Source: Candidatus Omnitrophota bacterium
GTDB taxonomy: Bacteria; Omnitrophota; Gorgyraeia; Gygaellales; Profunditerraquicolaceae
NCBI GenBank assembly: GCA_041650835.1
Contig: JBAZKL010000003.1
Coordinates: 291,682 to 355,681, forward strand
Reading direction: 5' to 3'
DNA length: 64,000 nucleotides
Position 1 is the first letter of the stretch. Every line of letters starts with the position of its first letter. The notes under the pieces were generated by a model. It worked only from the letters and a program-made list of their open reading frames with translations, did no database searches and was not told the DNA's origin. Positions 10,296 to 62,597 of the stretch are shown here, piece by piece. The translations under genes and the position numbers were made by a program.

Positions 10296-10311
10296 ATACC
10301 TGGTATAAAAT

Positions 10312-12553: not shown

Positions 12554-12559
12554 ATAGTC

Positions 12560-29052: not shown

Positions 29053-29188
29053 TTTAAGAAGACAGGAGAGTTCTTACTTCTTTTGAATTAAGCTGGTTTT
29101 AGAATAAGAGTAGAGTTGTAGAAAAAGTAAATTAAAACATTAATTTGGTTAACCCTTGATGTTAATTTTTACTTGACAAGGTTAATGT

Positions 29189-29521: not shown

Positions 29522-29523
29522 TT

Positions 29524-40835: not shown

Positions 40836-40913
40836 GGCCCCATCGTCTAGCCTGGCCTAGGACGAATGGTTCTCAGCCATTAAACACCGGTTCAAATCCG
40901 GTTGGGGCTACCA
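40836..40913 (+). tRNA. tRNA-Glu (anticodon CTC), CCA encoded
   Basis: GGCCCCATCGTCTAGCCTGGCCTAGGAC D-arm as in bacterial tRNA-Glu, anticodon loop TTCTCAG, T-arm CCGGTTCAAATCCGG, 3' ...GGGGCTACCA. Confidence 0.8.
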
Positions 40914-42853: not shown

Positions 42854-42861
42854 CAGCCCTC

Positions 42862-46433: not shown

Positions 46434-46449
46434 AATTTAAGGAGTAAAA

Positions 46450-48003: not shown

Positions 48004-49157
48004 TGAATAAGCAGGTGAATATTATCGATGCTGTCGAAATAATAAATAATCGAGTAAGGCCATTTAAGGGGCAGCGAAGATATTTAGCAACCGGTGACTT
48101 GGCTGGTGATGAAATTAATGAAACTGCTTTTGTGGATTATGAATCTAGGCCTAGCCGAGCAGATTTATTGGTAAATGAGGGCGAGATTATAGTTGCTCGC
48201 ATGCAAGCTACTAATAAAGTTCTCTTGATTGATGATACGACGAAAGATCTTATTGTTTCTACAGGATTTTTAACGCTTGCTCCGAAAAAAGGCTTTGATA
48301 TAAGATATCTTGCTCATTATTTTCGATCTGATATATTTCAACGCCAAAAAGACAGATATTGTTCTGGCGCAACGCAAAAAGCCATCAATAACGGGGCTTT
48401 TGAAAAATTATGTGTTCCAAGTTATCCGCTAGATGAGCAAAGAAAGATCGCTAAAATTTTAAGCCATGTTGAATTATTACGCCAGAAACGCAAGCAATCA
48501 TTTTGGTTTCTTAATGATTTTCTTCATGCAACATTCTTGCACATGTTTGGGGATCCTATACAAAATCCTAATAATCTGGCACAGAAGAAAATCGGAGAGC
48601 TCGGAAAAGTTATTACTGGCAACACTCCCCCTCGCCATAAGAAGGAATATTATGGAAATTATATTGAATGGATTAAATCAGATAATATAAATACACCACA
48701 ATTTACACTTACGAGAGCAGAGGAATATTTATCGAAAAAGGGTGCAGGAGTCGGTAGGGTTGCTCCTAAAGGATCAGTGTTGGTGACATGTATAGCCGGT
48801 ACGCCCGATTGTATTGGTAATATTGCAATGGCAGACCGTGAAGTTGCGTTTAATCAACAAATTAATGCATTTGTCCCGGGAGGAGAAATCTCCCAAACAA
48901 TATTTTTTGCCCAGGTGTTATTTTGCAAGAAGCTGATTCAACAAGCATCTACAAACAGCATGAAGGGTCTTGTATCAAAAGGCAAATTTTCTGAGATCAA
49001 AATTATCGTTCCTCCCAAAAAACAGCAAAATCGATTCGAAGCAATATTTGATAGGGTTGTGATCTTACGTTTACAGCAGCAAAGAAGCGCATTAGAGCTG
49101 GATAATCATTTTAATGTTTTAATACAAAAAGTATTTGGAGAAGCTGAAAATGTTTAA
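48003..49157 (+). CDS. hsdS: Type I restriction-modification specificity subunit
   Basis: Two target-recognition domains separated by conserved coiled-coil spacers; start overlaps the hsdM stop. Confidence 0.8.
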   Translation: MNKQVNIIDAVEIINNRVRPFKGQRRYLATGDLAGDEINETAFVDYESRPSRADLLVNEGEIIVARMQATNKVLLIDDTTKDLIVSTGFLTLAPKKGFDIRYLAHYFRSDIFQRQKDRYCSGATQKAINNGAFEKLCVPSYPLDEQRKIAKILSHVELLRQKRKQSFWFLNDFLHATFLHMFGDPIQNPNNLAQKKIGELGKVITGNTPPRHKKEYYGNYIEWIKSDNINTPQFTLTRAEEYLSKKGAGVGRVAPKGSVLVTCIAGTPDCIGNIAMADREVAFNQQINAFVPGGEISQTIFFAQVLFCKKLIQQASTNSMKGLVSKGKFSEIKIIVPPKKQQNRFEAIFDRVVILRLQQQRSALELDNHFNVLIQKVFGEAENV

Positions 49158-49812
49158 GCGGTATTTTGAGTATAATCAAGCATTATTAAATGCTCAATAT
49201 GGAGTTTCTGAAATTATAGAGCACCTGCAAACACGAGGCGAAGTAAGGGAAGATTTTATTCGCGATTTGATTATTAAGAGAAAACGTAATTTATTGGTTG
49301 GGACAGGATTCCTATCTGATGGTCGAGCTCAAAGTCCACAATGCGATATTATTATTGCACGAGATAATGCTCCTGTTATTTCTTTTGGCCAAAAAATTTG
49401 TTTAAATGTTTCTGATTGTAAAATTGTTGTTGAAGTTAAGAGTAATCTAACGAGTCAAGATATAAAGGTGTGTAACGAGAAAGCAGCTCAGATAAAAAGA
49501 ATGGCTGGTGAGTCAAAACCATTGTATGGTATTTTCTGTTATAAATTTAATTTTAAGAAAAATACTTTATTGCGGAGTTTTCGATTTGTTTATGATCCTG
49601 AGATTATGGAATATAACGAAAATCCGGCACTTCCTATGGTTTATCCAAATATTGATTTTATAATTTCAATAAGTGATGAAGAAGAATATCTGGAAAACGA
49701 AGATATTAAAAAGCAGTTTTTCGTAATAAAAAATGAAGTGACAGGAGGATATTCTTTCTTTAATGATTATCCTCCCATTAGGTACTTTTGGCGTTTGATA
49801 GATGGATTATAA
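49135..49812 (+). CDS. Hypothetical PD-(D/E)xK nuclease-like protein overlapping hsdS 3' end
   Basis: CDIIIARD...KIVVEVKSN gives a D...(E)VK restriction-endonuclease-fold motif. Overlaps the hsdS stop by 23 nt, suggesting co-transcription. Confidence 0.4.
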   Translation: MEKLKMFKRYFEYNQALLNAQYGVSEIIEHLQTRGEVREDFIRDLIIKRKRNLLVGTGFLSDGRAQSPQCDIIIARDNAPVISFGQKICLNVSDCKIVVEVKSNLTSQDIKVCNEKAAQIKRMAGESKPLYGIFCYKFNFKKNTLLRSFRFVYDPEIMEYNENPALPMVYPNIDFIISISDEEEYLENEDIKKQFFVIKNEVTGGYSFFNDYPPIRYFWRLIDGL

Positions 49813-49997
49813 AGAAATAGACATTTAGCTAAGGTAATGACGTGGTTAAGTAAATAAAATAATAATGGAAAACGGTATGCCTGAAGCGAAACAAATTATT
49901 GTTGAAGACGAAACTCTAAATGCGGTTACAAGCGACAACCTTTTTGAGAAAATCAATATTCCCCTCAGACGGATAAGTAATAAAAGGAGGTTTGAAC

Positions 49998-50879
49998 ATG
50001 GCTGAGCAGATAGAACAGAGAAAGAAAAGATCTCAGCAAATTGTTTTTCATCTGTTCCGATATCAAATTCTGCCTACGACGCAAACAATCCAATTGCGAT
50101 TTGATTCGCCAGTTAAGAATCTGGAAGATTTAAAGGCCAAAAAGAATAACTTTTTTTCTCAGGCGTTGACGGGCATGAAAAGAATTAATTATTCAAGAAC
50201 AGAGTTAACGCATAAAGTGAGTGAAATCGATAAAGATTTTTATCTTATAAAATTAGCTGCAAAAAGAAGTCTTAAGCGGTCGACACGCGATTTTAAGGAA
50301 GAGAAGATTGAAAATTGGCCTGCCACGAATATTATTATCAATAACCATCCGGCTGTTCAGAAAGCCATTATTCAGTTTAACCAAAAGGTTTTTAATGACA
50401 CAAAGAATATTGCTGATATTTTGCAGGATAGTTTAAACGATATGCTTAAAGAGTACCAACTTCATGTAATTTTTGAGAAAATTTTTGATGAAGTTAAATT
50501 TTGGCAAGTCGTCAATCTTTATAAGAACAGGATTATTCAGGCTGAATTCGAGCTAATTTCTCCTAATTTGGCGAATATTTCAAAATCCCTACAATTTGAT
50601 TTACAAGCGTTAAATCGTTCGACTAATACACAAAAAACAAAACTGCAGCTTAACAGTGATAAGGAAGCGATACTGACTCTGTCGCAAGAAGATCCCCTGG
50701 TTTCCGGCTTAGTAGATTATGCATCTCAAGGGGGAGGCAAAATTAACCTTAAGGTTCGGGGATTAAATAAAAAAATACATACTTCTGATAAAGCCACGGA
50801 AATAACAATTGATGAGATGGTATTTAATAACGCGGATCCAAAGGATATTCTAAAGATAATTGGTGGGATTATCAAATGA
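49998..50879 (+). CDS. Hypothetical soluble protein (gene A of a two-gene module)
   Basis: ATG at 49998 preceded by AAAGGAGG; no recognisable domain. Its stop overlaps the start of the downstream membrane-protein gene (ATGATGG). Confidence 0.45.
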   Translation: MAEQIEQRKKRSQQIVFHLFRYQILPTTQTIQLRFDSPVKNLEDLKAKKNNFFSQALTGMKRINYSRTELTHKVSEIDKDFYLIKLAAKRSLKRSTRDFKEEKIENWPATNIIINNHPAVQKAIIQFNQKVFNDTKNIADILQDSLNDMLKEYQLHVIFEKIFDEVKFWQVVNLYKNRIIQAEFELISPNLANISKSLQFDLQALNRSTNTQKTKLQLNSDKEAILTLSQEDPLVSGLVDYASQGGGKINLKVRGLNKKIHTSDKATEITIDEMVFNNADPKDILKIIGGIIK

Positions 50880-51313
50880 TGGACGTCATAAAAAATATAT
50901 CGGTTTCGGTGTTACTAGGAATTATTATTAACTCGTTATCTTCCTGGATGGGAAGCCATTTTTTATTAAAGTTTTTGGATTGCAATTTGATTACTTTACT
51001 CGTTGCCTTGATGGCGATTAATACTACTACGATGAGCGTCATGATGACTAAGATGAGCGAGATTAAAGAGCGACACAAAATTGATTTTCCAAAGACTATT
51101 CGTGAGATGACGGCTTCGATTTATGAACAAATATCGTTAATATGTATTGCGGTGGCTTTACAGATTATTAGCGATAGTCCGAAGATGAAACAATTGTGGC
51201 CAAATCCCGAGTTTATTATTTCAAGTTTTTTAGTGGCAGTTTTTGTATATGCAATGTTGATATTGTTTGATACTGCAAAAGGCATATTTGTTTTATTGGA
51301 GAATGAAAAGTAG
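50876..51313 (+). CDS. Small polytopic membrane protein (gene B of a two-gene module)
   Basis: 145 aa with about 4 predicted TM helices; translationally coupled to the upstream gene. Confidence 0.45.
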   Translation: MMDVIKNISVSVLLGIIINSLSSWMGSHFLLKFLDCNLITLLVALMAINTTTMSVMMTKMSEIKERHKIDFPKTIREMTASIYEQISLICIAVALQIISDSPKMKQLWPNPEFIISSFLVAVFVYAMLILFDTAKGIFVLLENEK

Positions 51314-51392
51314 CCAAGATATCAGAATTACGGAAGACTTTAAATAAGAGACGTTCTTCAAGAATCGTTTCGACGGTTAGAATAATAATTAA

Positions 51393-53132
51393 ATGAAGAT
51401 AAGATCACTAAAAATCCATAATTTCCGTTCAATTCTGGATTCACCCGAGATAATTTTTAACGACTTCTCATTATTAGTTGGAGCAAATAATGTCGGGAAG
51501 TCTAACTTAATCGATGTTTTAAGAATTTTATATGATGATGAAAAATTTGATAGTAAACGAGATTTTCCCAAGGTTTCTTTAAAACCAACCGATAATGAAA
51601 GTTGGGTTGATGTTAAATATATCCTTTCTGAAGAAGAATATAAGAATTTGCCTGATTATGCTAAAAAATTTACAAATAAATTAAGAATCAGAAAATATTT
51701 TAAATCTGACAATTCAGAACAGTTCAAATCTGGTCAGAGCAATATCTTTGCTTATGAAGAAGAAGGAGTGATATCTAAGAACCTGTTTCATGGAGCCAAG
51801 AATGTTTCTGAAGCAAAACTTGGACGGATTATATTTATTCCATCAGTTAACAAAACAGAAGATGTATTAAAAACTTCTGGTCCCTCTCCTTTGAGGCAGA
51901 TAGCTACATTTGTTTTTGAAAAAGTTGCCAAGAAAAGTCCTGCTTTTAATAATCTTGAAACGGCGTTTTCGAGTTTTGAGAGTGATTTTTCTACTGAATC
52001 TTCTTCAGATGGTTTTTCTATCAAAGATCTTATTGTCGATGTGAATAAGCATCTGGAGGAATGGCAGATATCATTCGGCATAAATATTAAAAAAATTAAG
52101 ATTGATGATATCATCAAAAACTTATTTGAGCATAATTGGAAAGATGATAACCTTGACGGTGAGGTTATAGACATAAATCAATATGGTCAGGGGTTTCAGC
52201 GCCACATAATCTATACACTTATTAAGTTATCAGCAAAGTATGTAGATAAAAGAACATCAAGCAAAAAAGAATTTATACCAGAATTTACGCTGATTCTATT
52301 TGAGGAACCAGAAGCATTTTTGCATCCGGCTCAGCAGGAAATATTACATGCGGGTTTGAAAGAAATCACTAGCGATGGGGAAGAACAAACCCAGGTTTTA
52401 ATTTCGACTCATTCCCCCATTTTTGTATCTAGAAACATTGATGATTTAACTTCGGTAATTAGATTGCAAAAGGAAAAAGGAAATACTAGGATTTCACAAA
52501 TTACCGAAATTAATGAGGATATTTTGTTCGGTGAAAATGCAAAATTGCTAGATTTTTTAAAAACAAAGTTAACTGAAACGTCAACTCCCGCAGATGTAAA
52601 ATCAGAAATTAAAAATATTGTTAATGGAACCGATGATTCTCTTAAGCTAGAAGAAGAATCAATGCGATATTTTTTATGGTTGAATTCAGAAAGGTGCTCA
52701 TTATTTTTTGCTGATTTTGTAATTATTTGTGAGGGAGCATCAGAAAAAATATTTGTTGAGTATTTGTTTAAATCAAAATGGGAAGATTTACGAAAGAAAC
52801 GTATTTATTTACTTGACGCAGGAGGTAAATACAATATTCATAGGTATATGAATTTATTTGAATTGTTATGTATTTCCCACAGCATTTTGTTGGATTCTGA
52901 TGGTGATAGGAAACATCAGAAATATATAAATGAATTTATTGATAGTAATAAGCGTCCCCAAACTAGATCGATTCATAAGTTTAATCCTGATTTTGAGAAT
53001 TTTCTAACTATTACTCCTGCTAAGAGGCCCGATAAAAAGCCTTTAAATGTATTTCTACATTTTCGAAATGGAAAAATTACTGATGCTAAGATAAATGAGC
53101 TGAAAGAAATTATTCAAAGAATTAGTACTTAG
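51393..53132 (+). CDS. OLD-family ATP-dependent endonuclease (ABC-type ATPase + Toprim)
   Basis: Walker A GANNVGKSN, Walker B/D-loop LILFEEPEAFLHP and a C-terminal Toprim with the EGxSE-type motif (VIICEGASEKIFVE). Confidence 0.75.
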   Translation: MKIRSLKIHNFRSILDSPEIIFNDFSLLVGANNVGKSNLIDVLRILYDDEKFDSKRDFPKVSLKPTDNESWVDVKYILSEEEYKNLPDYAKKFTNKLRIRKYFKSDNSEQFKSGQSNIFAYEEEGVISKNLFHGAKNVSEAKLGRIIFIPSVNKTEDVLKTSGPSPLRQIATFVFEKVAKKSPAFNNLETAFSSFESDFSTESSSDGFSIKDLIVDVNKHLEEWQISFGINIKKIKIDDIIKNLFEHNWKDDNLDGEVIDINQYGQGFQRHIIYTLIKLSAKYVDKRTSSKKEFIPEFTLILFEEPEAFLHPAQQEILHAGLKEITSDGEEQTQVLISTHSPIFVSRNIDDLTSVIRLQKEKGNTRISQITEINEDILFGENAKLLDFLKTKLTETSTPADVKSEIKNIVNGTDDSLKLEEESMRYFLWLNSERCSLFFADFVIICEGASEKIFVEYLFKSKWEDLRKKRIYLLDAGGKYNIHRYMNLFELLCISHSILLDSDGDRKHQKYINEFIDSNKRPQTRSIHKFNPDFENFLTITPAKRPDKKPLNVFLHFRNGKITDAKINELKEIIQRIST

Positions 53133-53144
53133 CGCAAAAACGAT

Positions 53145-54272
53145 ATGAAGTTAGTTCATTTCTCAGATACGCATTTAGGTTTTTCTGATTACAATAAGGT
53201 TGATCCAGAAACAGGTATCAACTTAAGAGAAGCCGATGTATATCATGCCTTTGCGCGGGTTATTGATTACATTATCAATAACCCGCCAGATATAGTAATT
53301 CACTCTGGTGATCTTTTTGATACTCATAGGCCTTCCAATAGAGCTATCAATATTGCTTTAAAAGAAATTGCAAAAATATCTCAAAAACAAATCCCCCTTG
53401 TAATGATTTCGGGTAATCATTCAACGCCGCGCGTAAAAACCTCCGGTTCTATTTTCGAAATATTCGAAATATTCGATAATGTATATCCAGTATATCAATC
53501 AAAGTATAAAGAGATTATCATAAAAGATGCAGCATTGCATTGCGTACCACATATGGCTACAGAAGAGGAGTTAAGGAAGGTTTTTGATAATCTCAAGCCA
53601 AACAGTAAGGTTAAGTATAATATAATAATTGCTCACATGGGAGTGACAGCAGATGTACAGTATAAGATGGGTGAGTTCAACGAATTGATTATTCCCTACG
53701 GCGTCATTAAGAAAAAAAACAATTTTGATTACATAGCTCTTGGCCATTATCATAAAAACCTACTCCTAGCAGACAATTGTTATTATTCAGGTTCAACGGA
53801 ACGTTTTAGTTTTAATGAGGTAGGGCAGGATAAAGGATTTATCGAAGTAAATCTATCTCAGAAGAAAACGGTGTTTATTCCTCTAAAAGTACGAGAAATG
53901 ATAGCTTTGGAATCAATTGATTGTCGAGATCTCAATATAAATGAGATTGTTAAGAAAGTGGAGCAACTCATTACTGGAAAAACCCTGGGGAGTATACTTC
54001 AGGTTACTTTTGATAATATAAAAAAACACCAATACGCCGAGTTAAACTTTCAAAAACTAAGAGACTTAACTAAAGATGCTGTTCATCTGAAAATAATCTG
54101 CAATTGGATGAGTGAAAAAGGGAAGGAAAGCACTAATACCGCGATAGGTACGCTTTCGGCAGAATTTGAGAGCTTTATCGAACACCAAGATATCAAAGAT
54201 TTAGATAAGAAAAAACTCAAAGAATTAGGAATAAATTATCTTTCGATTACTCAGGGGGCAGAGGAAGAATAA
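53145..54272 (+). CDS. sbcD: SbcD/Mre11-family nuclease (calcineurin-like phosphoesterase)
   Basis: Phosphoesterase motifs HFSDTHLG, GDLFD, GNHS and the later His motifs; 12 nt after the OLD gene. Confidence 0.8.
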   Translation: MKLVHFSDTHLGFSDYNKVDPETGINLREADVYHAFARVIDYIINNPPDIVIHSGDLFDTHRPSNRAINIALKEIAKISQKQIPLVMISGNHSTPRVKTSGSIFEIFEIFDNVYPVYQSKYKEIIIKDAALHCVPHMATEEELRKVFDNLKPNSKVKYNIIIAHMGVTADVQYKMGEFNELIIPYGVIKKKNNFDYIALGHYHKNLLLADNCYYSGSTERFSFNEVGQDKGFIEVNLSQKKTVFIPLKVREMIALESIDCRDLNINEIVKKVEQLITGKTLGSILQVTFDNIKKHQYAELNFQKLRDLTKDAVHLKIICNWMSEKGKESTNTAIGTLSAEFESFIEHQDIKDLDKKKLKELGINYLSITQGAEEE

Positions 54273-56678
54273 ATGTTTTTAAGAAGCCTTAAATTAAAAA
54301 ACTATAGGAAGTTTCGAGAAGAAATAATCGAATTCCCAGAAGGCATAATAGCTGTAATAGGACCTAATGGTGCAGGAAAATCCTCTATTTTAGAGGCCAT
54401 AGGATGGACTTTGTATGGCAACGCAATGGCGCGGACAGACAAGCTAGAAGTAAAGAGTCAAAATGCTTCTGAGGAAGAAGGCTGTGAAGCCGAACTTGTC
54501 TTTGATTTTGGAGACCACTCATACAAGATTTTTAGAGAGCTCAAGGGGAAAAACGCTATTTCGAATGCGTTAGCATATGTAGATGGAAGTATAGATCCTA
54601 TTGCAGAAAGAGATAGTGGTGTCAATCAATATATAGAAAGTTTGCTTGGGATGGATTACGGCACTTTCATAAAAACTGTTTATGCTAAACAAAAAGAATT
54701 AGCGGCTTTTTCGATTCTTCGTGCGGAAGATAGGAAAAAAGTCATAAGGAGGATGCTTAATATTGATCGTATTGACTTAGCCGTGACGAAAATTAGATCA
54801 GACGAGAGAGATAAACAGAAATTTATCGAAGGTATTCAAACTAGTCTTGAAGATCTTGATAAGTTAGAACAAGAAAAAAACGATATCATAAACCAACAGA
54901 AAAAGATAAATAAAGATGTCAATGATCGTGCCTTGACTTTAAAAACTATTGCGGAGGACAGGGATAAAATAAAGAAAGATAAAGATCATCAAGAACAAAA
55001 ATTTAAGATTTTTAATTCTTTTAATAAAGATAGCTCTCGTTTTGATACACAAAAATCCTCACTTGATAGAAGATTGAAAGAATTATTGAAGGAGCTAGGA
55101 GAATTAAAACAAAAAAAAGAGTCATTGGAAAAAATAGAATCTAAAGAACAGGAATATTTGAAAACTAAAAAAGATAAAGAGGATCAAGAAACATTGCGCT
55201 TACAATATCAAGAAAAGGTTGCCTTAATAAAGAGAATCAAGGAGAACAACGATGATATGGCTCAACGTTAAGGCAAGCATAAATTATCCACAGAACAATT
55301 AAAAGACTTTTCCGGAGCGCAGGAAGATTCAGACAAAACAGAAAAAACTATACATGAACAAGAAATTATAAGAAGAAGGCTTGAGAAAGAGACTAAAGAA
55401 ATTGAAGGAGAAGTGCGTATTTGTTCTTCGAAAATCGGAGAATTGCTATCACAAAAAAAGAAGTTCACTCAATTAGGCAGAAATGGCAAATGTCCTACTT
55501 GTTTCCGTGAGTTAGGAGACAATTACGAGGATATAGGAGGACATATTGATAGTGAGATAAAAAGCATTAAAGAAAAATTGCAACCAATACAAGAAAAAAG
55601 AGATAAGCTTAACAAACAATTAGAGGAGGTTATTGAGAATATAGATAAATTGGTTGAGAAAAAAAATAAACTAAATGAGAAATTGAAAAGAAAGTCTAGA
55701 GCTGAACAATCAATCGAAGAGCAAGACATCGAAATTAAAAAACTAAAAATAAAAATCGAGAAAGAAAAAGAGAAGCTAGAGGGCATGAGGGATATTAAAT
55801 TTGATCAAAACGCTTACGAGAAATTGGTAGATAAATTTGATGCGTTGTCAGAAATTAGGGATACTATTTTAGCGTTAAGAAAAGAAATTCAGAGAATTCC
55901 TAAAATCAATGAGATGATAGATGCTACGGAAAAAGAAATACAACTATTAGATTCTCAAATTAAACAAGTAGAAGATGAGCTAAAGAAGCTAGATTTTGAT
56001 GAGGGTAAATATGATAGGGTTAAAGCCAGCTATGAAGTTATAAATGATAAATTAAGCGAAATACAGAATAAATTGAATGATTCTAAAAGTCAACTCGCAG
56101 TTTCGAAGCAGAGACTGATCAATCTTGAAGAAAAGATTGATCGTCAAAAAGCGAGTAGAAATAAAATAGAAGAAGCTCGTGCGGTGCTTCAATATCTACA
56201 GCGTCTTGAATCTCTCCTGGAGAGTTTTAGGCTTGAATTAACAAGCAGAATTCGTCCTTTACTTGAGACCAGGGCTTCTTATCTTTTTAGTGAAATTACA
56301 AATGGACGTTATCCTTCTATAGAATTAGATGAAGACTACGAAATGTCTATACTCGATGGTAATAAAGTTTTTAGATTAAAAAGATTCTCGGGAGGAGAAG
56401 AAGATCTAGCCAATTTATGCCTAAGAATAGCAATGTCACAAGTTATCGCAGAGCGGAGTGGAGGCATAGAGATAAATTTTATTGCTTTAGACGAAATATT
56501 CGGTAGTCAAGATGAAGACCGTAGACAAAATATCTTGAATTCTCTTAATAAATTAGCATCTCAGTTTCGTCAGATTTTTTTGATTACTCATATAGAAGAT
56601 ATTAAAGAGATGCTTTCTAGGGTTTTACTGGTAGAGGAGAATATTACGACCAAGGAAAGCAAGGTGTCATTAGGATAA
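54273..56678 (+). CDS. sbcC: SbcC/Rad50-family ATPase, interrupted by one in-frame TAA (55269-55271)
   Basis: N-terminal Walker A (GPNGAGKSS), long coiled coil with a CPTC zinc hook, and C-terminal signature and Walker B/D-loop (LDEIFGSQD). ORFs 54273..55271 and 55413..56678 share one frame and are separated only by a single TAA, with no other stops. Confidence 0.7.
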
Positions 56679-56997
56679 GAAAGAACCTGATATACAACAA
56701 GGATATGAAAGAATTCATGGTGCTGGTCAAAATTACTTCAAAGGAAAGCCATCTAAATCTAGCCTTGTTGATGAATATTATAAATCATCGGAGTCGGATA
56801 ACAAGGGAGATGAAAAACTTTTAAAAATCGCTAAGTTATTTTTGGATAAATATAATACGGAAGACTTCCCCGAAAGTGTTAAAAATTTAGCCAAACTTAT
56901 AAAATAATTCAGCATAGAAAAATCCTCCTCACTTAGAGCGGTCCATCATAAAATAAAAGAAATAGAGACAAAATACACAAATATCGGAAAGGGAGAT

Positions 56998-58851
56998 ATG
57001 AAATCCGAAACTGAAGTTAGAGATGTTTTTCTTTGTCACGCAAGTGTTGATAAAAAAGAGTATGTAAAACCGTTATTAGATCAGTTGTCATTAACAGGCA
57101 TTACTTATTGGTATGATGAAGCAGAGATAAGATGGGGTGATAGTTTAGTAGGAAAAATTAACGAAGGCTTAAGAAGATCACGCTTTGTTTTAATCTTTCT
57201 GAGCAAGAACTTTGTCGAAAGAAATTGGCCTGAGAAAGAATTAAATGCTGCGATAGGCCTGGGAATAAATTCTGGGACTACGATTGCGTTGCCTCTATTG
57301 ATAGGAAATGACAATGATATTGAAGCGATTTTGGGAAAATATCCATTATTACGGGATAAAAAATATGAAAGGTGGGACAAAGGAGTCGATTCATTGATAA
57401 TTTCATTAAAGGCGAGACTTCAGGAAGGCGCATCGCAATCAGACCCTGACAAAAACGTATATATTTATGAGCAAAAAGATAATAAGAAATATCAAAAATT
57501 CAACGGAGGCAAGATGACTCAATTTATTATTTATTTAATTTTATTTTTCATCTCTTCTGCAGGAGTCTGGTTTTTTGGAAGCAAAGCCTGGGAAACAGGA
57601 ACGAATCTTTGGTGGAAGAAGCCCGAGACACAACAAATGCAACCTCATCAATCAGCTAGCGGTAATAATAGTGTTCAATTGATGAGCACGGGCAACAATA
57701 GCCCTGTAACGTATATAGACAAACAAGTTGTTAATCCTAGTCCCAAAAATGAAGTGGTAAATAATATTGTCAATATCCCTAATGCACTTGGAAATGAATC
57801 GCAGGGGTCTGGGCGAATAATGGAAGGGAAGAGAAGTAATATTCTTGAACAAGGTTGCATTGAAAAGATTGTTGAGAAAAACTCAGGAATAGCCAAAATA
57901 GAAGTATCTCCAGTTGCGCCAGCCTTTAAACAAGCTACATTCCATCTTGAGCCCAAATCGATTGTTAACATTGAGTTTGAAGGTAAGCCGATACTTCTTA
58001 GCAACTATTATACATTTTCTTTTATTATTTTCTCAAGAAATCAAATTGTAAAATCAGACGTTTGGTTAGCTATCCAAGGCGATAATGTTGAGGCTCCTAC
58101 CAATTTTTATTTTGAAGATGCCATACCATATCAGGATATCAAGGCAGAAAATATAAAAACTTTTCGTCCACAAGTTTCAAGTTATTTCCCCGAAGCCCCA
58201 CATTCTATTAAGGGGAAAATACGAATAACAAATACAAGAGATGAGCCGTCCGATATCTCAATTGTTTTACCTGTTATAGAAGAAGGATCGTTTGCGTCTA
58301 CTCCTATTGTAAGTGGAGCAACAAGGAATGCAGTGTTTTTGAGTTATGAAAGTAAAGGTAACTTGCCATCCGATTTGAATAATGGTGGCACAATTGGATT
58401 TATGTTTTCTCCTTACTGGGATGCTAGCCGTTTAACACCAGGATACAATCCACATTTTCTTAATTGGACAGACAAAAATGGTACAAACGGGATAAAAATA
58501 ATCGCAGATTCTAAAGATAAAGGAAAAATTAAGGTTTCGATAGCAGTAGATGGTAAAACTACTACGATATCCAGCGATGTAGTTCCGCTAAAAGGCGAAG
58601 TTTATTCAGTAATTTTTAGATTCCAGAAAGGCAGTGCCGATTTAATTGTTAACGGAAATAATAAAACACCCGGTAAAAATATCGCGTTTCCAGATGTAGC
58701 TAAATTAGATACTAAATTCTTTATCGGATGCAATCCCTACAATGAGAATGATGGGGCTTTTAGCGTAATAAAAAATATTTTTGCATACGCAAGATGGCTA
58801 AATGATGATGAGGTTAAAGCCATAATAAATTATACACTAGAGAAAAGGTAA
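56998..58851 (+). CDS. TIR-domain protein with a TM segment and C-terminal concanavalin-A-like (LamG-type) domain
   Basis: N-terminal TIR signature (DVFLCHASVDK...VLIFLSKNFVERNWPEKEL), one hydrophobic helix (FIIYLILFFISSAGVWFF), and a C-terminal ...FFIGCNPYNENDGAFSVIKNIFAYARWLNDDEVKAI matching the LamG_3 consensus end. Confidence 0.7.
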   Translation: MKSETEVRDVFLCHASVDKKEYVKPLLDQLSLTGITYWYDEAEIRWGDSLVGKINEGLRRSRFVLIFLSKNFVERNWPEKELNAAIGLGINSGTTIALPLLIGNDNDIEAILGKYPLLRDKKYERWDKGVDSLIISLKARLQEGASQSDPDKNVYIYEQKDNKKYQKFNGGKMTQFIIYLILFFISSAGVWFFGSKAWETGTNLWWKKPETQQMQPHQSASGNNSVQLMSTGNNSPVTYIDKQVVNPSPKNEVVNNIVNIPNALGNESQGSGRIMEGKRSNILEQGCIEKIVEKNSGIAKIEVSPVAPAFKQATFHLEPKSIVNIEFEGKPILLSNYYTFSFIIFSRNQIVKSDVWLAIQGDNVEAPTNFYFEDAIPYQDIKAENIKTFRPQVSSYFPEAPHSIKGKIRITNTRDEPSDISIVLPVIEEGSFASTPIVSGATRNAVFLSYESKGNLPSDLNNGGTIGFMFSPYWDASRLTPGYNPHFLNWTDKNGTNGIKIIADSKDKGKIKVSIAVDGKTTTISSDVVPLKGEVYSVIFRFQKGSADLIVNGNNKTPGKNIAFPDVAKLDTKFFIGCNPYNENDGAFSVIKNIFAYARWLNDDEVKAIINYTLEKR

Positions 58852-59094: not shown

Positions 59095-60375
59095 ATGAAG
59101 ATTCAAAAAATAAAAGTTTCGGAAATAAACCCCGCCGTTTATAACCCTCGCATTACGCTTCGTCCGGGCGATGCCGAGTACGAACGTCTTAAGAAGAGCA
59201 TCTTAACATTCGGCTTGGTCGAGCCTCTTATCCTTAATAAGCGCACAGGTAATCTTGTTGGTGGTCACCAGCGACTAAATATCTTAATTGAACAAGGCGT
59301 AACGGAAGTGGAAGTAAGCATAGTGGATTTGTCGCTAGAAATGGAGAAAGCTCTCAATATAGCACTCAACAAAATCTCTGGCGCCTGGGATGAGGAGAAA
59401 CTTTCAACACTACTATCCGAAATGCAAAAGATCCCGGATTTTGAAGTGGGGCTAACGGGTTTTGAGCCAAAAGAGATAAGTGAGCTCTTGGATGAGTTTG
59501 CTACGCCGCAGGAAGAAGATGACTTTGATTTCGAAGCAGAAGTCAATTCCATGCAGGAGCCGATCACAAAGCGAGGAGATATTATCGAGCTTGGTAGACA
59601 CAGAATCATATGTGGTGATTCATCTTCGTTAGAGGACGTAAAAGCGCTGATCGGTAACGAAAAAATCAACCTTATCCATACCGACCCGCCTTATAACGTC
59701 AACTACTATGGCGGTAATCGTCCGGTTCCAAATGTTCGACCAAAAGAGTCCAGAAATTGGGAGAGGATATATTCTGATAACTTAAACCAGGAGGAATATG
59801 AGATCTGGCTTAAGAAGATATTCAGTAATGTAGACTCTTTTCTTGAGACTGGTGCGTCCTTCTACATTTGGAATGGGCACAAGCAGTTCGGCCAGATGCA
59901 TGTGATGCTCGAGGGATTAGGTTATCATATTGCCTGTGTTATAACCTGGGCAAAGCCTAATTTTGCGATATCGTATGCTGACTATAATCAGCAAACGGAA
60001 TTCTGTTTGTACGGCTGGAAGAAGGATAATGGCGCTCACGCCTGGTATGGTCCTACCAACGCAAGTACTCTTTGGGAAATTAAGCGCGACAGCACTAAAG
60101 AATACATCCACCCTACCCAGAAGCCGACAGCGTTAGCGCAAAGAGCCATGAAGAATAGTTCGAAGCGTGGCGACATTGTCTTGGATCTATTCCTGGGATC
60201 TGGTTCGACATTGATAGCCGCTGAAGGTCTGGAAAGAAGATGTTTTGGCTTGGAGATCGATCCTAAGTATTGCGACTCGATCATTAGGCGCTACATTTCT
60301 TATGTAGGTAAGGATAAAGCTCCGGCTGATCTTGTGAAAAAGTATTGCAAGGAGGAGCAACATGTCGGCAAATAA
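59095..60375 (+). CDS. ParB-like nuclease domain fused to N6/N4 DNA methyltransferase (phage-type orphan methylase)
   Basis: N-terminal ParB/Srx fold (LVGGHQRL) and a C-terminal MTase with DPPY (IHTDPPYNV) and an AdoMet-binding region. Confidence 0.8.
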   Translation: MKIQKIKVSEINPAVYNPRITLRPGDAEYERLKKSILTFGLVEPLILNKRTGNLVGGHQRLNILIEQGVTEVEVSIVDLSLEMEKALNIALNKISGAWDEEKLSTLLSEMQKIPDFEVGLTGFEPKEISELLDEFATPQEEDDFDFEAEVNSMQEPITKRGDIIELGRHRIICGDSSSLEDVKALIGNEKINLIHTDPPYNVNYYGGNRPVPNVRPKESRNWERIYSDNLNQEEYEIWLKKIFSNVDSFLETGASFYIWNGHKQFGQMHVMLEGLGYHIACVITWAKPNFAISYADYNQQTEFCLYGWKKDNGAHAWYGPTNASTLWEIKRDSTKEYIHPTQKPTALAQRAMKNSSKRGDIVLDLFLGSGSTLIAAEGLERRCFGLEIDPKYCDSIIRRYISYVGKDKAPADLVKKYCKEEQHVGK

Positions 60376-61036
60376 CGACCAGGCTAATAAAGAGCAACCG
60401 ATTCTTGCGCTCATTCAGGATATAAAAGATGGCCGCATAGCTCCGGAAACCATCGACAAGGAGTTGCGTCAGCAGTGTATTGAGGTGTTTTTGGCTGAAG
60501 GCTATACCACTTCTTCAATAGCTCAGATATTCAAAAAGACCGATAGGACAATTCGTCGGGATATAGAGGATATAAGAGCGCAAAACGCCATTACCCCGGA
60601 TATAGACCTGGCTAAGAAGACCATCGGCGAAATGGTTGTATATATGCATACTCACCGAGCTTATCTTATGCGCCTTGCTCGCTTAAAAGATGCCTCAGTA
60701 GCTGAAAAAGCTCAGGCCGAATACCTGGCCGCTCGTATTGGTATCGAACTAGTCGCCAGGCTGCAAACCTTGGGGTTCCTACCTTTAAAGCCTCAGGAGA
60801 TTATTGCTGACATCTCTCACCATGTAACCGCCGATAACGAGAGTTCGTTTGACGAGTTGAGATCTCAGATAGTGGAAATCGAGAGAATTTCGAAGGAGTC
60901 TGGAGAGCTAACGCCGGAAATGACAAAAGAACTTGAGAACTTGAAGAAGAGAATTGAAAAAGCGGAAATACAAGATAAGGTAACTAAAATATTATCCCAT
61001 ACGGATGAGAAAGGAAAAGATGAAAAAGATAATTGA
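60362..61036 (+). CDS. Putative terminase small subunit / HTH DNA-binding protein
   Basis: Internal HTH (TTSSIAQIFKKTDRTIRRDIEDI) and a charged coiled-coil tail; positioned immediately upstream of, and overlapping, the terminase large subunit. Confidence 0.4.
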   Translation: MSANNDQANKEQPILALIQDIKDGRIAPETIDKELRQQCIEVFLAEGYTTSSIAQIFKKTDRTIRRDIEDIRAQNAITPDIDLAKKTIGEMVVYMHTHRAYLMRLARLKDASVAEKAQAEYLAARIGIELVARLQTLGFLPLKPQEIIADISHHVTADNESSFDELRSQIVEIERISKESGELTPEMTKELENLKKRIEKAEIQDKVTKILSHTDEKGKDEKDN

Positions 61037-62597
61037 AAATATCAGCAGTGAGATTGTGAGGTTCAGGAGGAGGGTGGGGATGGATTTCATCAGCTTCCGC
61101 AATTTTTATTTCCCAAATTATAATAAAAATCCTGACGGTGAATTCCAAAAAGAATTATCACAGATCCTCGTCAATATGAAGACTAAAAGAGGCGCGCGAT
61201 ATGCGATAGCGGCGCCACGGGGGTTCGCAAAGAGCACGATCGTAGGGTTACAGTATGTGATCTATTGTATCTGTTATAAGCTAGAGGATTTTATTGTGCT
61301 AGCTTCAAGCACAAGTAGCCAGGCGACGGATTTCTTGAGACACATTAAAGAAGAATTCGAAGCTAATGAAAGATTAAAAGCGGATTTCCCGGAAGTCTGC
61401 GAAGTCGGCAGCAAGCTAAGTCCTCCTCGCTGGACACAAAGCGAGATTATCACCAGTAATGACGTAAAAGTTATTGCTCTAGGTACAGGGCAGCAGCTTA
61501 GAGGTCGTAGACACAAAGAATCGCGGCCTACGCTGATAATTCTCGACGATATCGAAACCGATGAGACGGTGGAGAATCCTGACAGTCGTTATAAACTGGA
61601 AGATTGGATAAATAAAACCGTCTTAAAGGCAGGCGAAGCAAGGACCAATGTTATAATTATTGGTACGTTGCATCACCCTGCCTCGTTATTAGCCAAATAC
61701 ACTGATTCCAAGCAATCCCCCGGCTGGACTAGCAAAGTATATAAGGCGATAATATCGTATGCAGAACGCGTTGAATTATGGGAAGAATGGAAGCGGATAC
61801 TTCTAGGAAAAGAGCCCTACAATGGTGAATTTGGTTTAGATGCGGCGCTGGCGTTTTACAAAAAGCACGAAAGCGTCATGCTAAAAGGAGTAAAACTTCT
61901 ATGGCCAGAATTCAAAAGCTACTATGATCTTATGCTGATGAGAGAACAAGAGGGGTATTCCAGCTTTGATTCCGAGATGCAAAACGAACCCATAAATCCA
62001 CGGGACTGTGCTTTTAATATGGAAGAGGTGAGTTTTTGGGAGGATGGATTTGAATCCGAGGACAATCTAATGCATGTAATGCGCCATGAGATACTTTGTT
62101 ATGGAGCATGCGATCCAAGCCTTGGTAGAGAAGGGAAACAAAGTGATGATTCGGCCATAGTTGTTGTAGCCTGGAATCCGGAAAAAGGGAAGATATATAT
62201 ACTGGAGGCCGATATCGCCAGGCGAAGCCCTGATAAGACGATTGAAGATATCTTAGCCTATCATATGAACCGCGAGATTATAGGGTTTGGTTTTGAAACC
62301 AACCAATTTCAAGAAGTGATGGCTCAGGACCTTATGAGGCGTGCAAGGGAAGGGTGCATAGCAATAAAACTTAAGGAAATAAGAAATACCGTTGATAAAC
62401 TTGCCAGGATCCAGTCTCTCCAGGTCCTCATTAAGAGCGGCACCATACTGTTCTCTAGGAAGCACCAGACATTGCTTGAACAGTTAAGGTATTTCCCTAA
62501 GGGGCCTCATGACGATGGACTGGATGCGCTGGAGATGGTAGTGCGGTTGTGCTATAAGCCATCGAGAAACCCAAGATGCTTATCTATACCGCGGTAA
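61005..62597 (+). CDS. Phage terminase large subunit
   Basis: Walker A (APRGFAKST), Walker B (LIILDDIE), and a C-terminal RNaseH-like nuclease domain with conserved Asp residues (ACDPSLGREGKQSDDSAIVVV). Confidence 0.8.
   Translation: MRKEKMKKIIENISSEIVRFRRRVGMDFISFRNFYFPNYNKNPDGEFQKELSQILVNMKTKRGARYAIAAPRGFAKSTIVGLQYVIYCICYKLEDFIVLASSTSSQATDFLRHIKEEFEANERLKADFPEVCEVGSKLSPPRWTQSEIITSNDVKVIALGTGQQLRGRRHKESRPTLIILDDIETDETVENPDSRYKLEDWINKTVLKAGEARTNVIIIGTLHHPASLLAKYTDSKQSPGWTSKVYKAIISYAERVELWEEWKRILLGKEPYNGEFGLDAALAFYKKHESVMLKGVKLLWPEFKSYYDLMLMREQEGYSSFDSEMQNEPINPRDCAFNMEEVSFWEDGFESEDNLMHVMRHEILCYGACDPSLGREGKQSDDSAIVVVAWNPEKGKIYILEADIARRSPDKTIEDILAYHMNREIIGFGFETNQFQEVMAQDLMRRAREGCIAIKLKEIRNTVDKLARIQSLQVLIKSGTILFSRKHQTLLEQLRYFPKGPHDDGLDALEMVVRLCYKPSRNPRCLSIPR

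What the first reader, a model, noticed from the sequence alone, without database searches (positions are those of the whole stretch)
51393..58851. OLD-family ATPase/Toprim nuclease co-operonic with SbcD and SbcC, followed by a TIR protein: candidate undescribed multi-gene defence system
Three + strand genes are packed with 12-nt and 0-nt spacers. They encode an OLD-family ABC-ATPase/Toprim nuclease, an Mre11-like SbcD and a Rad50-like SbcC with a zinc hook. They sit inside a mobile-element defence island next to a Type I RM system and a TIR protein. Characterised OLD-family systems pair the ATPase with a UvrD helicase (Gabija), an HNH nuclease (Septu-like), or AriB (PARIS). An OLD + SbcCD pairing is not one I can assign to a described system. 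SbcCD processes DNA hairpins and ends, so the trio could recognise and cleave replication or recombination intermediates of invading DNA. The alternative is that SbcCD are phage recombination genes (T4 gp46/47-like) that merely neighbour a class-1 OLD gene.
Basis: partly seen in the sequence, partly recalled or inferred. Interest (0 to 1): 0.85.

Follow-up and report, generated by a model that had tools for sequence, protein, structure and literature searches.

The report
OLD nuclease beside mobile Mre11-Rad50 genes
A prophage's defence-gene bay carries an OLD-type nuclease directly in front of an Mre11/Rad50-like (SbcD/SbcC) pair; the two are separable mobile modules, not one fixed three-gene system, the Rad50 gene here has a premature stop codon, and the same kind of pairing turns up now and then in unrelated bacteria.

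Summary
A 91%-identical relative (L182) has CAA there and an intact gene.

The pair resembles archaeal Mre11/Rad50 more than E. coli SbcCD or phage gp46/47.

The trio is not a conserved cassette:
- The closest OLD (91% aa), in a sister prophage, shares DNA with the window over the OLD ORF only, and sits between a Type III R-M and RmuC.
- Of 74 informative loci of this OLD family, 27 have R-M genes within three genes. Only 2 have SbcD or SbcC.
- SbcD(375 aa)-SbcC(801 aa) always travel as a pair, with varying neighbours.
- The TIR gene is absent from L182.

OLD next to an SbcCD-like pair does recur. I found seven other adjacent loci, involving five OLD lineages and four SbcD lineages. A 2026 preprint shows host SbcCD removes the DNA hairpins that trigger P2 OLD.

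Best reading: these are autonomous modules stacked in a prophage cargo bay. A loose partnership through shared DNA substrates is possible but unproven. Interest is moderate.

The parts
51393..53132 (+). Class-1 OLD-family gene (579 aa): N-terminal ABC ATPase fused to a C-terminal Toprim nuclease. It behaves as a single-gene mobile cassette.
   Evidence: Pfam AAA_15 9.3e-28 and OLD-like_TOPRIM 1.8e-17; PADLOC 'Old' 1.7e-55. Walker A G30-K36, EPEAFLHP 305-312, Toprim E447 and D501/D503 are invariant in a 32-sequence family alignment. DNA homology to sister prophage L003 (87% nt) spans 51391-53133 only.
53145..54272 (+). SbcD/Mre11-like metallophosphoesterase nuclease (375 aa), archaeal Mre11 type
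   Evidence: Pfam Metallophos 1.5e-17. Best solved relatives are M. jannaschii Mre11 (3auz/3av0, ~1e-20) against E. coli SbcD at 5e-7. Best NCBIfam model is Mre11_Sulfo, 4.8e-37. Phosphoesterase residues D8, H10, D56, N91-H92, H164, H201 and H203 are invariant in the clade alignment.
54273..55271 (+). SbcC/Rad50-like N-terminal fragment (332 aa: Walker A head plus the start of the coiled coil), ended by the premature stop
   Evidence: AAA_23 2.6e-19, SMC_N 8.6e-12. Same frame as the downstream part.
55269..55271 (+). In-frame TAA nonsense codon inside sbcC. The relative L182 has CAA (Gln) here.
   Evidence: dN/dS against L182 is 0.11 and 0.13 for the two halves, so the mutation is recent.
55272..56678 (+). 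SbcC/Rad50-like C-terminal part (468 codons after the stop; first in-frame start is GTG at 55413). It contains the coiled coil, the zinc hook CPTC at 55491-55502, the signature motif and Walker B.
   Evidence: SbcC_Walker_B 2.6e-07. CPTC at residue 407 of the 801-codon frame, as in L087. The intact orthologue's best solved relative is M. jannaschii Rad50, 1.5e-31.
56998..58851 (+). TIR / transmembrane / concanavalin-like protein (617 aa). A separate single-gene module, not linked to the trio.
   Evidence: TIR_2 8.2e-19, weak Laminin_G_3 0.0027. PADLOC PDC-S66 4.3e-31 over the TIR part only. Absent downstream of SbcC in L182.
43638..49157 (+). Type I restriction-modification operon hsdR (43638-46433), hsdM (46450-48003), hsdS (48003-49157). 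Context, and the commonest kind of neighbour of this OLD family.
   Evidence: Pfam families listed; PADLOC Specificity_I 7.8e-68; OLD-family neighbour survey.
49135..51313 (+). Three co-oriented genes between the R-M and OLD: a DUF6602/PD-(D/E)xK-like gene (49135-49812), an unknown 295-aa gene (49992-50879) and an unknown 145-aa probable membrane protein (50876-51313)
   Evidence: DUF6602; PADLOC PD_DExK 7.5e-16. The other two have no hit in Pfam, PADLOC, NCBIfam or PHROGs.
41258..43305 (-). Large serine recombinase (41258-42853) plus DUF2924 (42862-43305), next to tRNA-Glu (40836-40913). Left end of the integrated prophage.
   Evidence: The sister element L003 has the same recombinase/DUF2924 ... 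ParB-methylase/terminase frame with different cargo.
59095..62597 (+). Prophage backbone to the right of the cargo bay: ParB-N6/N4 methyltransferase (59095-60375), HTH protein (60362-61036), large terminase (61005-62597)
   Evidence: N6_N4_Mtase 5.6e-36; phrog_38 terminase large subunit 1e-101.

Best explanation
Window 43.6-58.9 kb is the cargo (defence) bay of a prophage integrated beside tRNA-Glu. It stacks separable, co-oriented modules:
- a Type I R-M with a DUF6602 nuclease;
- two unknown small genes;
- a class-1 OLD gene;
- an archaeal-type Mre11/Rad50 (SbcD-SbcC) pair;
- a TIR membrane protein.

OLD is a self-contained sensor-effector. By analogy with P2 OLD (inferred, not shown here), its ABC-ATPase part senses aberrant DNA, such as hairpins or unprocessed ends made during phage replication or after restriction. 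That releases the Toprim nuclease, which cuts tRNA or DNA and aborts infection.

The SbcD-SbcC pair is an autonomous two-gene hairpin- and end-processing nuclease that also circulates on its own in bacterial defence islands and plasmids (inferred function). In this window a recent CAA-to-TAA mutation truncates SbcC, so the pair is probably inactive.

OLD, SbcD and SbcC are not subunits of one obligate machine. Their tight juxtaposition is most likely a loose, facultative partnership through shared DNA substrates: SbcCD trims the structures that OLD senses.

My estimates: 'separable modules, not an obligate system' about 0.85; 'the adjacency is selected rather than accidental' about 0.5.
For: Separability:
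- Sister prophage L003 shares 87% nt identity with the window over 51391-53133 only, which is exactly the OLD ORF. Its backbone is only 66-79% identical. There OLD overlaps a Type III res gene and is followed by RmuC.
- Of 74 informative genome loci of this OLD family, 27 have R-M genes within 3 genes. A recurrent pattern is hsdM-hsdS-OLD-hsdR with 4-nt overlaps. Only L032 and L033 have SbcD or SbcC.
- SbcD(~375 aa) and SbcC(~801 aa) co-occur in 70 of 76 SbcD-seeded loci. Their other neighbours vary: SNF2+RNaseH-like, NurA-HerA, NERD-UvrD, BrxL, KAP-TIR, Type ISP R-M. Some contexts are housekeeping, in Thaumarchaeota and Brocadiales.
- L182 keeps OLD(C-terminus)-SbcD-SbcC at 91% nt identity, but homology ends 32 nt after sbcC and a primase gene follows instead of TIR.

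Inactivation:
- In-frame TAA where L182 has CAA. dN/dS is 0.09-0.13 for all parts.

Recurrence of the adjacency:
- L087: OLD(642 aa)-SbcD-SbcC.
- L102: OLD(663 aa)-NucS-like-SbcD-SbcC.
- L225: OLD(688 aa)-SbcD-like-ATPase.
- L223: YhaO/YhaN-like pair, then an OLD 85% identical to L225's.
- L032: OLD-sbcD with a 4-nt overlap.
- L033: sbcD-RhuM-RhuM-OLD-sbcC, a low-GC insertion in a 61% GC operon. Its OLD is 79% identical to L032's.
- These loci are documented.
- Among 15 non-redundant loci of the mobile SbcD clade, OLD fills 3 of 29 upstream gene slots against 0 of 108 other slots (Fisher one-sided p = 0.009, index case included).

Mechanistic rationale:
- In E. coli, deleting sbcD potentiates P2 OLD, and SbcCD counteracts OLD activation by processing hairpins (bioRxiv 10.64898/2026.07.10.737580).
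Against: - The 12-nt and 0-nt spacing and the conservation of the whole block in L182 would also fit a true operon-level system.
- The enrichment statistic is small-sample and includes the index case. My own estimate without it is p of about 0.05; this was not computed.
- Defence genes cluster anyway, so part or all of the recurrence could be island stacking.
- The window's OLD is only distantly related to P2 OLD and to Ts OLD (E 4e-8 over 60 residues). Its trigger and target are therefore extrapolated.
- No experiment or interaction prediction was run.
- If SbcCD were a needed safety partner, a truncated SbcC next to an intact OLD would be unexpected, unless the host's own SbcCD compensates.
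Confidence: 0.55

Rival explanations
1. Pure coincidence. OLD and the SbcD-SbcC pair are unrelated residents of a defence or cargo hotspot. Their adjacency, here and elsewhere, carries no functional meaning.
For: - The cargo bay of the sister prophage holds different genes.
- OLD moves as a single-ORF cassette.
- Only 2 of 74 OLD-family loci, and about 3 of 15 mobile SbcD loci, show the pairing.
- 13 of 14 sampled alphaproteobacterial plasmid SbcD-like pairs have no adjacent OLD.
- SbcC is broken here.
Against: - Two near-identical OLD lineages each sit next to different SbcCD-type genes in different positions: L225/L223 at 85% identity and L032/L033 at 79%.
- In L033 an OLD is inserted inside a housekeeping sbcD-sbcC operon.
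- Positional enrichment, p = 0.009.
- A published genetic interaction between P2 OLD and SbcCD.
Confidence: 0.3
2. A genuine, obligate three-gene defence system. OLD, SbcD and SbcC act as one machine that recognises and cleaves replication or recombination intermediates of invaders.
For: - Tight spacing of 12 nt and 0 nt.
- The block is conserved at 91% nt identity in L182.
- The same gene order OLD-SbcD-SbcC occurs in L087 and L225 with unrelated OLDs.
- No existing PADLOC assignment.
Against: - The OLDs in these loci are only 22-34% identical to one another and do not form a dedicated clade.
- The nearest OLD relatives lack SbcCD, and the nearest SbcCD relatives lack OLD.
- Gene order differs between loci: OLD lies upstream, downstream or between the two genes.
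- SbcC carries a nonsense codon here while OLD stays intact.
Confidence: 0.1
3. The SbcD-SbcC pair is the prophage's own recombination/replication nuclease (T4 gp46/47 or T5 D12/D13-like) and merely neighbours a class-1 OLD.
For: - The element is a prophage (terminase).
- The PHROGs families for SbcC- and SbcD-like subunits are hit: phrog_77 at 1e-55 and phrog_100 at 6.6e-33.
Against: - The pair lies in the variable cargo bay, not in a replication module, and the sister prophage lacks it.
- The best IMG/VR relative is 33% identical and the best GenBank phage relative 27%, against 61-95% for cellular or metagenomic relatives.
- Close relatives sit in housekeeping archaeal and Brocadiales contexts or in defence islands.
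Confidence: 0.05
4. OLD's real partner is the Type I R-M upstream (compatible with the best explanation). On this reading it is an R-M-linked second-line guard, like PrrC or RloC, that fires when restriction fails or when restriction products persist.
For: - R-M genes lie within 3 genes of OLD in 27 of 74 family loci.
- In Type I loci OLD often sits between hsdS and hsdR with overlapping stop and start codons, the position PrrC occupies in EcoprrI (that comparison is from my own knowledge).
- Type III mod/res genes flank it in L003, L005, L012 and L014.
- In the window OLD lies 2.2 kb downstream of hsdS on the same strand.
Against: - Three other genes separate hsdS from OLD here.
- 47 of 74 family loci have no R-M nearby.
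- No experiment links this OLD family to R-M function.
Confidence: 0.3

Closest known systems
Class 1 OLD-family nucleases (phage P2 Old; Thermus scotoductus OLD, PDB 6P74)
   Same: - One polypeptide with an N-terminal ABC ATPase and a C-terminal Toprim nuclease, and no helicase partner.
- Best PADLOC model is 'Old'; closest solved structure is Ts OLD.
- Carried by a prophage, as P2 old is.
   Different: - Very distant in sequence: E 4e-8 to 6P74 over about 60 residues.
- It belongs to a large, well-conserved family of its own: about 575 aa, 1524 proteins at E <= 1e-10, typically about 50% identical.
- The main genomic habit of that family is embedding in Type I and Type III R-M operons.
- Trigger and target are untested.
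Gabija (GajA-GajB), PARIS (AriA-AriB), retron-Eco8/Septu-type OLD or ABC systems
   Same: The same ABC-ATPase(+Toprim) sensor/effector logic. GajA and AriA models are hit at 1e-28 to 1e-36.
   Different: - There is no UvrD-like GajB, no separate DUF4435/Toprim AriB, and no reverse transcriptase or HNH partner within the window's cargo bay.
- The neighbouring genes are an Mre11/Rad50 pair, which is not a component of any of these systems.
Mre11-Rad50 / SbcCD DNA end- and hairpin-processing complex (M. jannaschii Mre11-Rad50, PDB 3AV0/5F3W; E. coli SbcCD, PDB 6S6V)
   Same: - Adjacent nuclease and ATPase genes.
- All phosphoesterase motifs, Walker A/B and signature motifs, a coiled coil and the CxxC zinc hook.
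   Different: - Compact archaeal-type version (375 + 801 aa), carried as prophage cargo in a bacterium.
- SbcC is interrupted by a nonsense codon.
- Close relatives are scattered in bacterial defence islands as well as in housekeeping loci.
P2 OLD - host SbcCD genetic interaction (bioRxiv 10.64898/2026.07.10.737580)
   Same: It links the same two protein families functionally. SbcCD removes the ssDNA hairpins that activate OLD, and deleting sbcD potentiates OLD defence.
   Different: - There SbcCD is the unlinked host enzyme, and no gene-neighbourhood link is reported.
- Here, and in seven other loci, the two are encoded side by side.
Lamassu (LmuA-LmuB-LmuC), proposed to derive from SbcCD (PMC12663957)
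   Same: A Rad50/SbcC-like coiled-coil ATPase used in defence islands. The LmuB model is hit at 2e-14.
   Different: - The partner here is a complete Mre11-type nuclease.
- No LmuA effector or LmuC is present.
- Coiled-coil length and the zinc hook are Rad50-like.
R-M-linked ABC-ATPase nucleases PrrC / RloC
   Same: An ABC-ATPase nuclease embedded in or beside Type I R-M loci. Many members of this OLD family occupy the hsdS-hsdR slot.
   Different: - The effector is Toprim rather than a HEPN anticodon nuclease.
- In this window OLD is 2.2 kb away from hsdS.
- The comparison with PrrC's position rests on my own knowledge, not on a tool result.

Membership tests
OLD family, class 1 (Schiltz et al. 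2019, PMC6755086) | N-terminal ABC-type ATPase with Walker A/B | tested here: met
   AAA_15 9.3e-28, AAA_21 3.3e-17. GxNNxGKS (30-37) and EPEAFLHP (305-312) are invariant in the family alignment.
OLD family, class 1 (Schiltz et al. 2019, PMC6755086) | C-terminal Toprim domain with the conserved Glu and DxD | tested here: met
   OLD-like_TOPRIM 1.8e-17 at residues 438-503. E447, D501 and D503 are invariant.
OLD family, class 1 (Schiltz et al. 2019, PMC6755086) | No tandem UvrD/PcrA/Rep helicase (this separates class 1 from class 2/Gabija) | tested here: met
   The flanking genes are an unknown 145-aa gene and SbcD. There is no helicase domain in the neighbours apart from the Type I hsdR. Class definition.
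OLD family, class 1 (Schiltz et al. 2019, PMC6755086) | ATP-dependent, metal-dependent nuclease activity | not testable with these tools
   Needs biochemistry.
Gabija | GajA accompanied by a GajB (UvrD-like helicase) gene | tested here: not met
   No UvrD-like gene adjacent.
PARIS | AriA ATPase with a separate AriB (DUF4435/Toprim) partner | tested here: not met
   Toprim is fused to the ATPase, and there is no AriB-like neighbour.
SbcCD / Mre11-Rad50 | Mre11-type phosphoesterase with the complete motif set | tested here: met
   Metallophos 1.5e-17. D8, H10, D56, N91-H92, H164, H201 and H203 are invariant. Mre11 structures hit at ~1e-20.
SbcCD / Mre11-Rad50 | Rad50/SbcC ATPase: split ABC head, long coiled coil, CxxC zinc hook | tested here: met
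   AAA_23/SMC_N at the N-terminus and SbcC_Walker_B at the C-terminus. CPTC at residue 407. Rad50 structures hit at 1.5e-31 with the intact orthologue.
SbcCD / Mre11-Rad50 | Intact, translatable SbcC reading frame | tested here: not met
   In-frame TAA at 55269-55271; the orthologue L182 has CAA.
SbcCD / Mre11-Rad50 | Reaches a curated equivalog threshold for SbcC/SbcD or Mre11/Rad50 | tested here: not met
   The best NCBIfam equivalog hits are far below their cut-offs: Mre11_Sulfo 128 bits (cut-off 500) and Rad50 PRK03918 175 bits (cut-off 700). Only the broad TIGR00619 sbcd subfamily model passes, at 94.6 bits against 77.65.
Phage recombination nuclease (T4 gp46/47-like) | Clusters with phage-encoded homologues and lies in a phage replication/recombination module | tested here: not met
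   At most 33% identity in IMG/VR and at most 27% in GenBank phages. It lies in the variable cargo bay and is absent from the sister prophage.
Lamassu | LmuB SMC-like ATPase with an LmuA effector (and LmuC) | tested here: not met
   Only the ATPase hits LmuB (2e-14). The partner is a full Mre11 nuclease, and no LmuA or LmuC model is hit.
   2 of 74 OLD-seeded genome loci, 0 of 35 viral loci, and 3 of 15 non-redundant mobile SbcD loci.
   Seven other adjacent loci, five OLD lineages and four SbcD lineages. Fisher p = 0.009 including the index case. The sample is small and no phylogenetic correction was applied.
Thoeris (for the TIR gene) | ThsB-like TIR protein accompanied by ThsA (SIR2/Macro-SLOG) | tested here: not met
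   The TIR domain hits ThsB models (1e-17), but no ThsA-like gene lies in 43.6-62.6 kb.
Type I restriction-modification | hsdR, hsdM and hsdS all present | tested here: met
   HSDR_N/ResIII/EcoEI_R_C, HsdM_N/N6_Mtase and Methylase_S. Specificity_I 7.8e-68.

The most novel reading that the evidence does not exclude
OLD nucleases and SbcCD/Mre11-Rad50-type nucleases form a recurrent, facultative 'sensor plus trigger-editor' pair. The co-encoded SbcCD clears self-made hairpins and DNA ends, which sets OLD's activation threshold. It would also act as a guarded target: phage Gam-like inhibitors of SbcCD would let the trigger build up and fire OLD. Separately, the compact 375+801-aa Mre11/Rad50 pair would be a mobile defence-island module of its own, absent from current defence catalogues.
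Probability: 0.3. Interest if true: 0.7.

Novelty: new member of a known kind. Interest (0 to 1): 0.45.

Why it matters
If the adjacency is only island stacking, this is an ordinary prophage defence bay with a decaying Rad50 gene.

If the pairing is selected, it gives natural, ready-made constructs for testing a model that currently rests on E. coli genetics alone: that SbcCD edits the DNA structures which switch on OLD-family abortive nucleases. The candidate constructs are L182 (intact version of this locus), L087, and L225 from cultured Paracoccus versutus.

Two by-products may matter more than the original claim:
- This large OLD family is habitually embedded in Type I and Type III R-M operons, in a PrrC-like position. 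That suggests a widespread OLD second line of defence linked to restriction.
- An archaeal-type Mre11/Rad50 pair circulates through bacterial defence islands with no entry in PADLOC.

Tried and rejected
- tblastn of the window's SbcD, SbcC, TIR, p295 and p145 against 80 OLD-seeded genome loci: only L033 was hit. An iterated SbcD HMM added only L032.
- Alternative genetic code or readthrough for the TAA: rejected. No bacterial code reassigns TAA (my own knowledge), and sbcC itself ends in TAA. A sequencing or assembly error cannot be excluded, because the only second contig is 100% identical.
- Split-gene idea (functional N and C halves): the first in-frame start after the stop is GTG at 55413, which would lose 47 codons of coiled coil. 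The AGGAG upstream is only 2 nt from it. Judged unlikely but not tested.
- A shared accessory gene of about 290 aa (window p295, L088 p294, L102 p290): no similarity between them. L102 p290 is NucS-like.
- Promoter and terminator scan of 49.0-59.2 kb: no more sites than in shuffles, so uninformative.
- Viral collections: no close SbcD relatives and only 3 close OLD relatives, none with SbcD.
- PLSDB hits of L087- and L102-type OLDs other than L223 and L225: solo or R-M-linked.
- Krishnan et al. 2020, the ABC-ATPase classification that might already note such neighbourhoods, is not in the held library. Prior description there cannot be excluded.
- Structure prediction and fold search were not used. 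Family membership was already clear from sequence, and they could not address the linkage question.

Full report
**1. What is in the sequence**

Between 43.6 and 62.6 kb all sizeable genes run on the + strand. In order they are:
- hsdR (43638-46433), hsdM (46450-48003), hsdS (48003-49157);
- a DUF6602/PD-(D/E)xK-like gene (49135-49812);
- two genes with no family match (49992-50879 and 50876-51313);
- OLD (51393-53132);
- SbcD (53145-54272);
- SbcC (from 54273);
- a TIR protein (56998-58851);
- a ParB-methyltransferase, an HTH protein and a large terminase (61005-62597).

A large serine recombinase and a DUF2924 gene lie on the - strand at 41258-43305, next to tRNA-Glu. Domain assignments come from Pfam, PADLOC, NCBIfam and PHROGs and from the precomputed table for the source contig. 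G+C drops from about 50% to 33-40% across this stretch. The region is therefore the cargo bay of an integrated prophage.

**2.

SbcC is not one open frame. An in-frame TAA at 55269-55271 ends a 332-aa N-terminal ORF. The rest of the protein continues in the same frame. Together the parts make 801 codons, exactly the length of intact orthologues (801 aa in L087, L088, L182 and L219).

L182 is 91% identical in DNA over window 52830-56710. It has CAA (Gln) at that codon. dN/dS between the window and L182 is 0.09-0.13 for OLD, SbcD and both SbcC halves. So the stop is recent, or an error.

The only other contig with the stop is 100% identical to the window and may come from the same reads. A second relative, L220, also has a fragmented SbcC.

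**3. What kind of SbcCD this is**

- The closest solved structures are Methanocaldococcus jannaschii Mre11 (~1e-20) and Rad50 (1.5e-31). E. coli SbcD and SbcC score 5e-7 and 7e-13.
- The best NCBIfam models are archaeal Mre11/Rad50, all far below equivalog cut-offs.
- In 76 SbcD-seeded loci, the 375-aa nuclease is followed by the ~801-aa ATPase in 70.
- The ~40%-identity relatives sit in thaumarchaeal housekeeping contexts or in NurA-HerA-Mre11-Rad50 operons. One 61% relative sits among housekeeping genes of a Brocadiales genome.
- The other close bacterial relatives lie in mobile or defence contexts with changing neighbours: R-M+OLD, NurA/HerA, SNF2+RNaseH-like (in two samples), NERD-UvrD, BrxL and AAA+subtilase, KAP-TIR, Type ISP R-M plus recombinase.
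- Phage homologues are remote: at most 33% identity in IMG/VR and at most 27% in GenBank phages.

The 'phage recombination genes' alternative is therefore not supported.

**4. Is OLD-SbcD-SbcC a conserved cassette? No.**

The OLD belongs to a large, well-conserved family: 1524 proteins at E <= 1e-10, typically about 50% identical and about 575 aa long.

Its closest member (91% aa) sits in a sister prophage with the same recombinase/DUF2924 ... ParB-methylase/terminase frame. There it overlaps a Type III res gene and is followed by RmuC. DNA homology between the two elements is 87% across 51391-53133, which is precisely the OLD ORF, and only 66-79% in scraps of backbone. OLD therefore moves as a single-gene cassette.

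In 80 genome loci found with the family profile, 74 have informative flanks:
- R-M genes lie within three genes in 27 of them. Of these, 12 are Type I and often show hsdM-hsdS-OLD-hsdR with 4-nt overlaps. The other 15 are Type III or methylase-type.
- SbcD or SbcC occurs in two, L032 and L033.
- None of 35 viral loci has it.

The TIR gene is not part of the conserved block either.

**5. But the adjacency recurs**

Besides the window and L182 I found these loci:
- L087 (Omnitrophota): R-M, then OLD(642 aa)-SbcD-SbcC.
- L102: OLD(663 aa)-NucS-like-SbcD-SbcC.
- L225 (Paracoccus versutus pTAV4): OLD(688 aa)-SbcD-like(375 aa)-ATPase(875 aa).
- L223 (Roseibium plasmid): a YhaO/YhaN-type Metallophos+AAA_27 pair, followed by an OLD 85% identical to L225's.
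- L032: OLD overlapping sbcD by 4 nt.
- L033: RhuM-RhuM-OLD (43-49% G+C) inserted between the sbcD and sbcC genes of a 61% G+C genome. Its OLD is 79% identical to L032's.
- L232: an OLD one gene away from an SbcD-like pair.

The OLDs fall into five lineages that are 22-38% identical to one another. The SbcDs fall into four lineages.

In 15 non-redundant loci of the mobile SbcD clade, OLD fills 3 of 29 upstream gene slots against 0 of 108 other slots (Fisher p = 0.009). My own estimate without the index case is about 0.05; this was not computed.

Thirteen of fourteen sampled alphaproteobacterial plasmid pairs have no adjacent OLD. The association is real enough to notice, low in frequency, and not proven to exceed ordinary defence-island clustering.

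**6. Mechanism**

*Shown here:* intact catalytic motifs in OLD and SbcD, a truncated SbcC, modular exchange of the genes, and R-M-centred neighbourhoods for the OLD family.

*Inferred from a July 2026 preprint on P2 OLD:*
- OLD is an auto-inhibited tetramer.
- It is activated by ssDNA hairpins at phage origins, or by unprocessed DNA ends.
- It then cleaves tRNAs and aborts infection.
- Host SbcCD counteracts activation, and deleting sbcD potentiates defence.

That preprint reports no gene-neighbourhood link.

*My reading:*
- OLD here is a stand-alone sensor-effector.
- The Mre11/Rad50 pair is an autonomous hairpin and end processor.
- Where the two are encoded together, the pair may set or gate OLD's trigger level, and may serve as the target whose inhibition by a phage releases OLD.
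- The R-M neighbours fit the same logic, because restriction makes DNA ends.

In this window the SbcC truncation means the pair is probably not working, which is tolerable if the host has its own SbcCD.

**7. Comparison with known systems, and novelty**

- OLD meets the class-1 definition: no UvrD partner, no retron, no AriB.
- It is not Gabija, PARIS or Septu.
- The SbcC-like ATPase hits LmuB weakly, but the locus is not Lamassu.
- No PADLOC model covers any of the SbcD-like proteins.

The components are new members of known kinds, and the proposed multi-gene system is not supported as such.

The most novel reading still open is a facultative OLD-SbcCD sensor/trigger-editor partnership, together with a mobile archaeal-type Mre11/Rad50 defence-island module. 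I put this at about 0.3.

I could not consult Krishnan et al. 2020, so prior mention of such neighbourhoods cannot be excluded.

Noticed in passing
window 55269-55271: In-frame TAA splits the 801-codon sbcC. The 91%-identical relative L182 has CAA there. Another relative (L220) also has a fragmented sbcC, so mobile copies of this gene may decay often.
   Followed up: yes
L013, L028, L044, L047, L048, L049, L057, L058, L075 (OLD at about 8001 in most of these loci); L003, L005, L012, L014: Members of this OLD family are very often embedded in R-M operons. In Type I loci they sit between hsdS and hsdR with overlapping stop and start codons, and in other loci they flank Type III mod/res genes. 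R-M genes lie within 3 genes in 27 of 74 loci. This PrrC-like position suggests an OLD guard linked to restriction.
   Followed up: partly
L033 4649-13237: A low-GC (43-49%) RhuM-RhuM-OLD insertion sits between the sbcD and sbcC genes of a 61% GC genome. OLD overlaps sbcC by 4 nt.
   Followed up: partly
window 49992-51313: Two overlapping genes (295 aa, and a 145-aa probable membrane protein) lie between the R-M and OLD. Neither matches anything in Pfam, PADLOC, NCBIfam or PHROGs. They could be another two-gene defence module.
   Followed up: no
window 49135-49812: A DUF6602 / PD-(D/E)xK-like gene overlaps the end of hsdS. It looks like a restriction-linked ORF.
   Followed up: no
window 56998-58851: The TIR protein has an unusual architecture: an N-terminal TIR domain, a hydrophobic stretch that looks like one transmembrane helix, and a ~400-aa C-terminal region with a weak concanavalin/LamG-like match. 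There is no ThsA partner nearby.
   Followed up: partly
L089 484-9231 and L183 86-8833: A four-gene arrangement, SNF2 helicase (1233 aa) - RNaseH-like (506 aa) - SbcD - SbcC, recurs in two independent samples. It is possibly a distinct system built on the same Mre11/Rad50 pair.
   Followed up: no
L234 9961-12282; L238 3573-5909: On two alphaproteobacterial plasmids, an AAA_13-type ABC ATPase (~775 aa; the two are 35% identical) sits directly next to the SbcD-like pair. This is another ABC-ATPase 'sensor' beside an SbcCD-like nuclease.
   Followed up: no
window 28015-34355: A second low-GC islet (33-41% GC) holds a HEAT-repeat protein, an HTH + ImmA/IrrE metallopeptidase and a 1103-aa subtilase. 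It lies just upstream of tRNA-Gln.
   Followed up: no
L240-L242, about 9823-12847: On sphingomonad plasmids the SbcD-like pair is followed by a conserved pair (a ~396-aa hypothetical protein and a ~609-aa ATP-binding protein), and on two of the three (L241, L242) preceded by an AbiE toxin-antitoxin pair.
   Followed up: no
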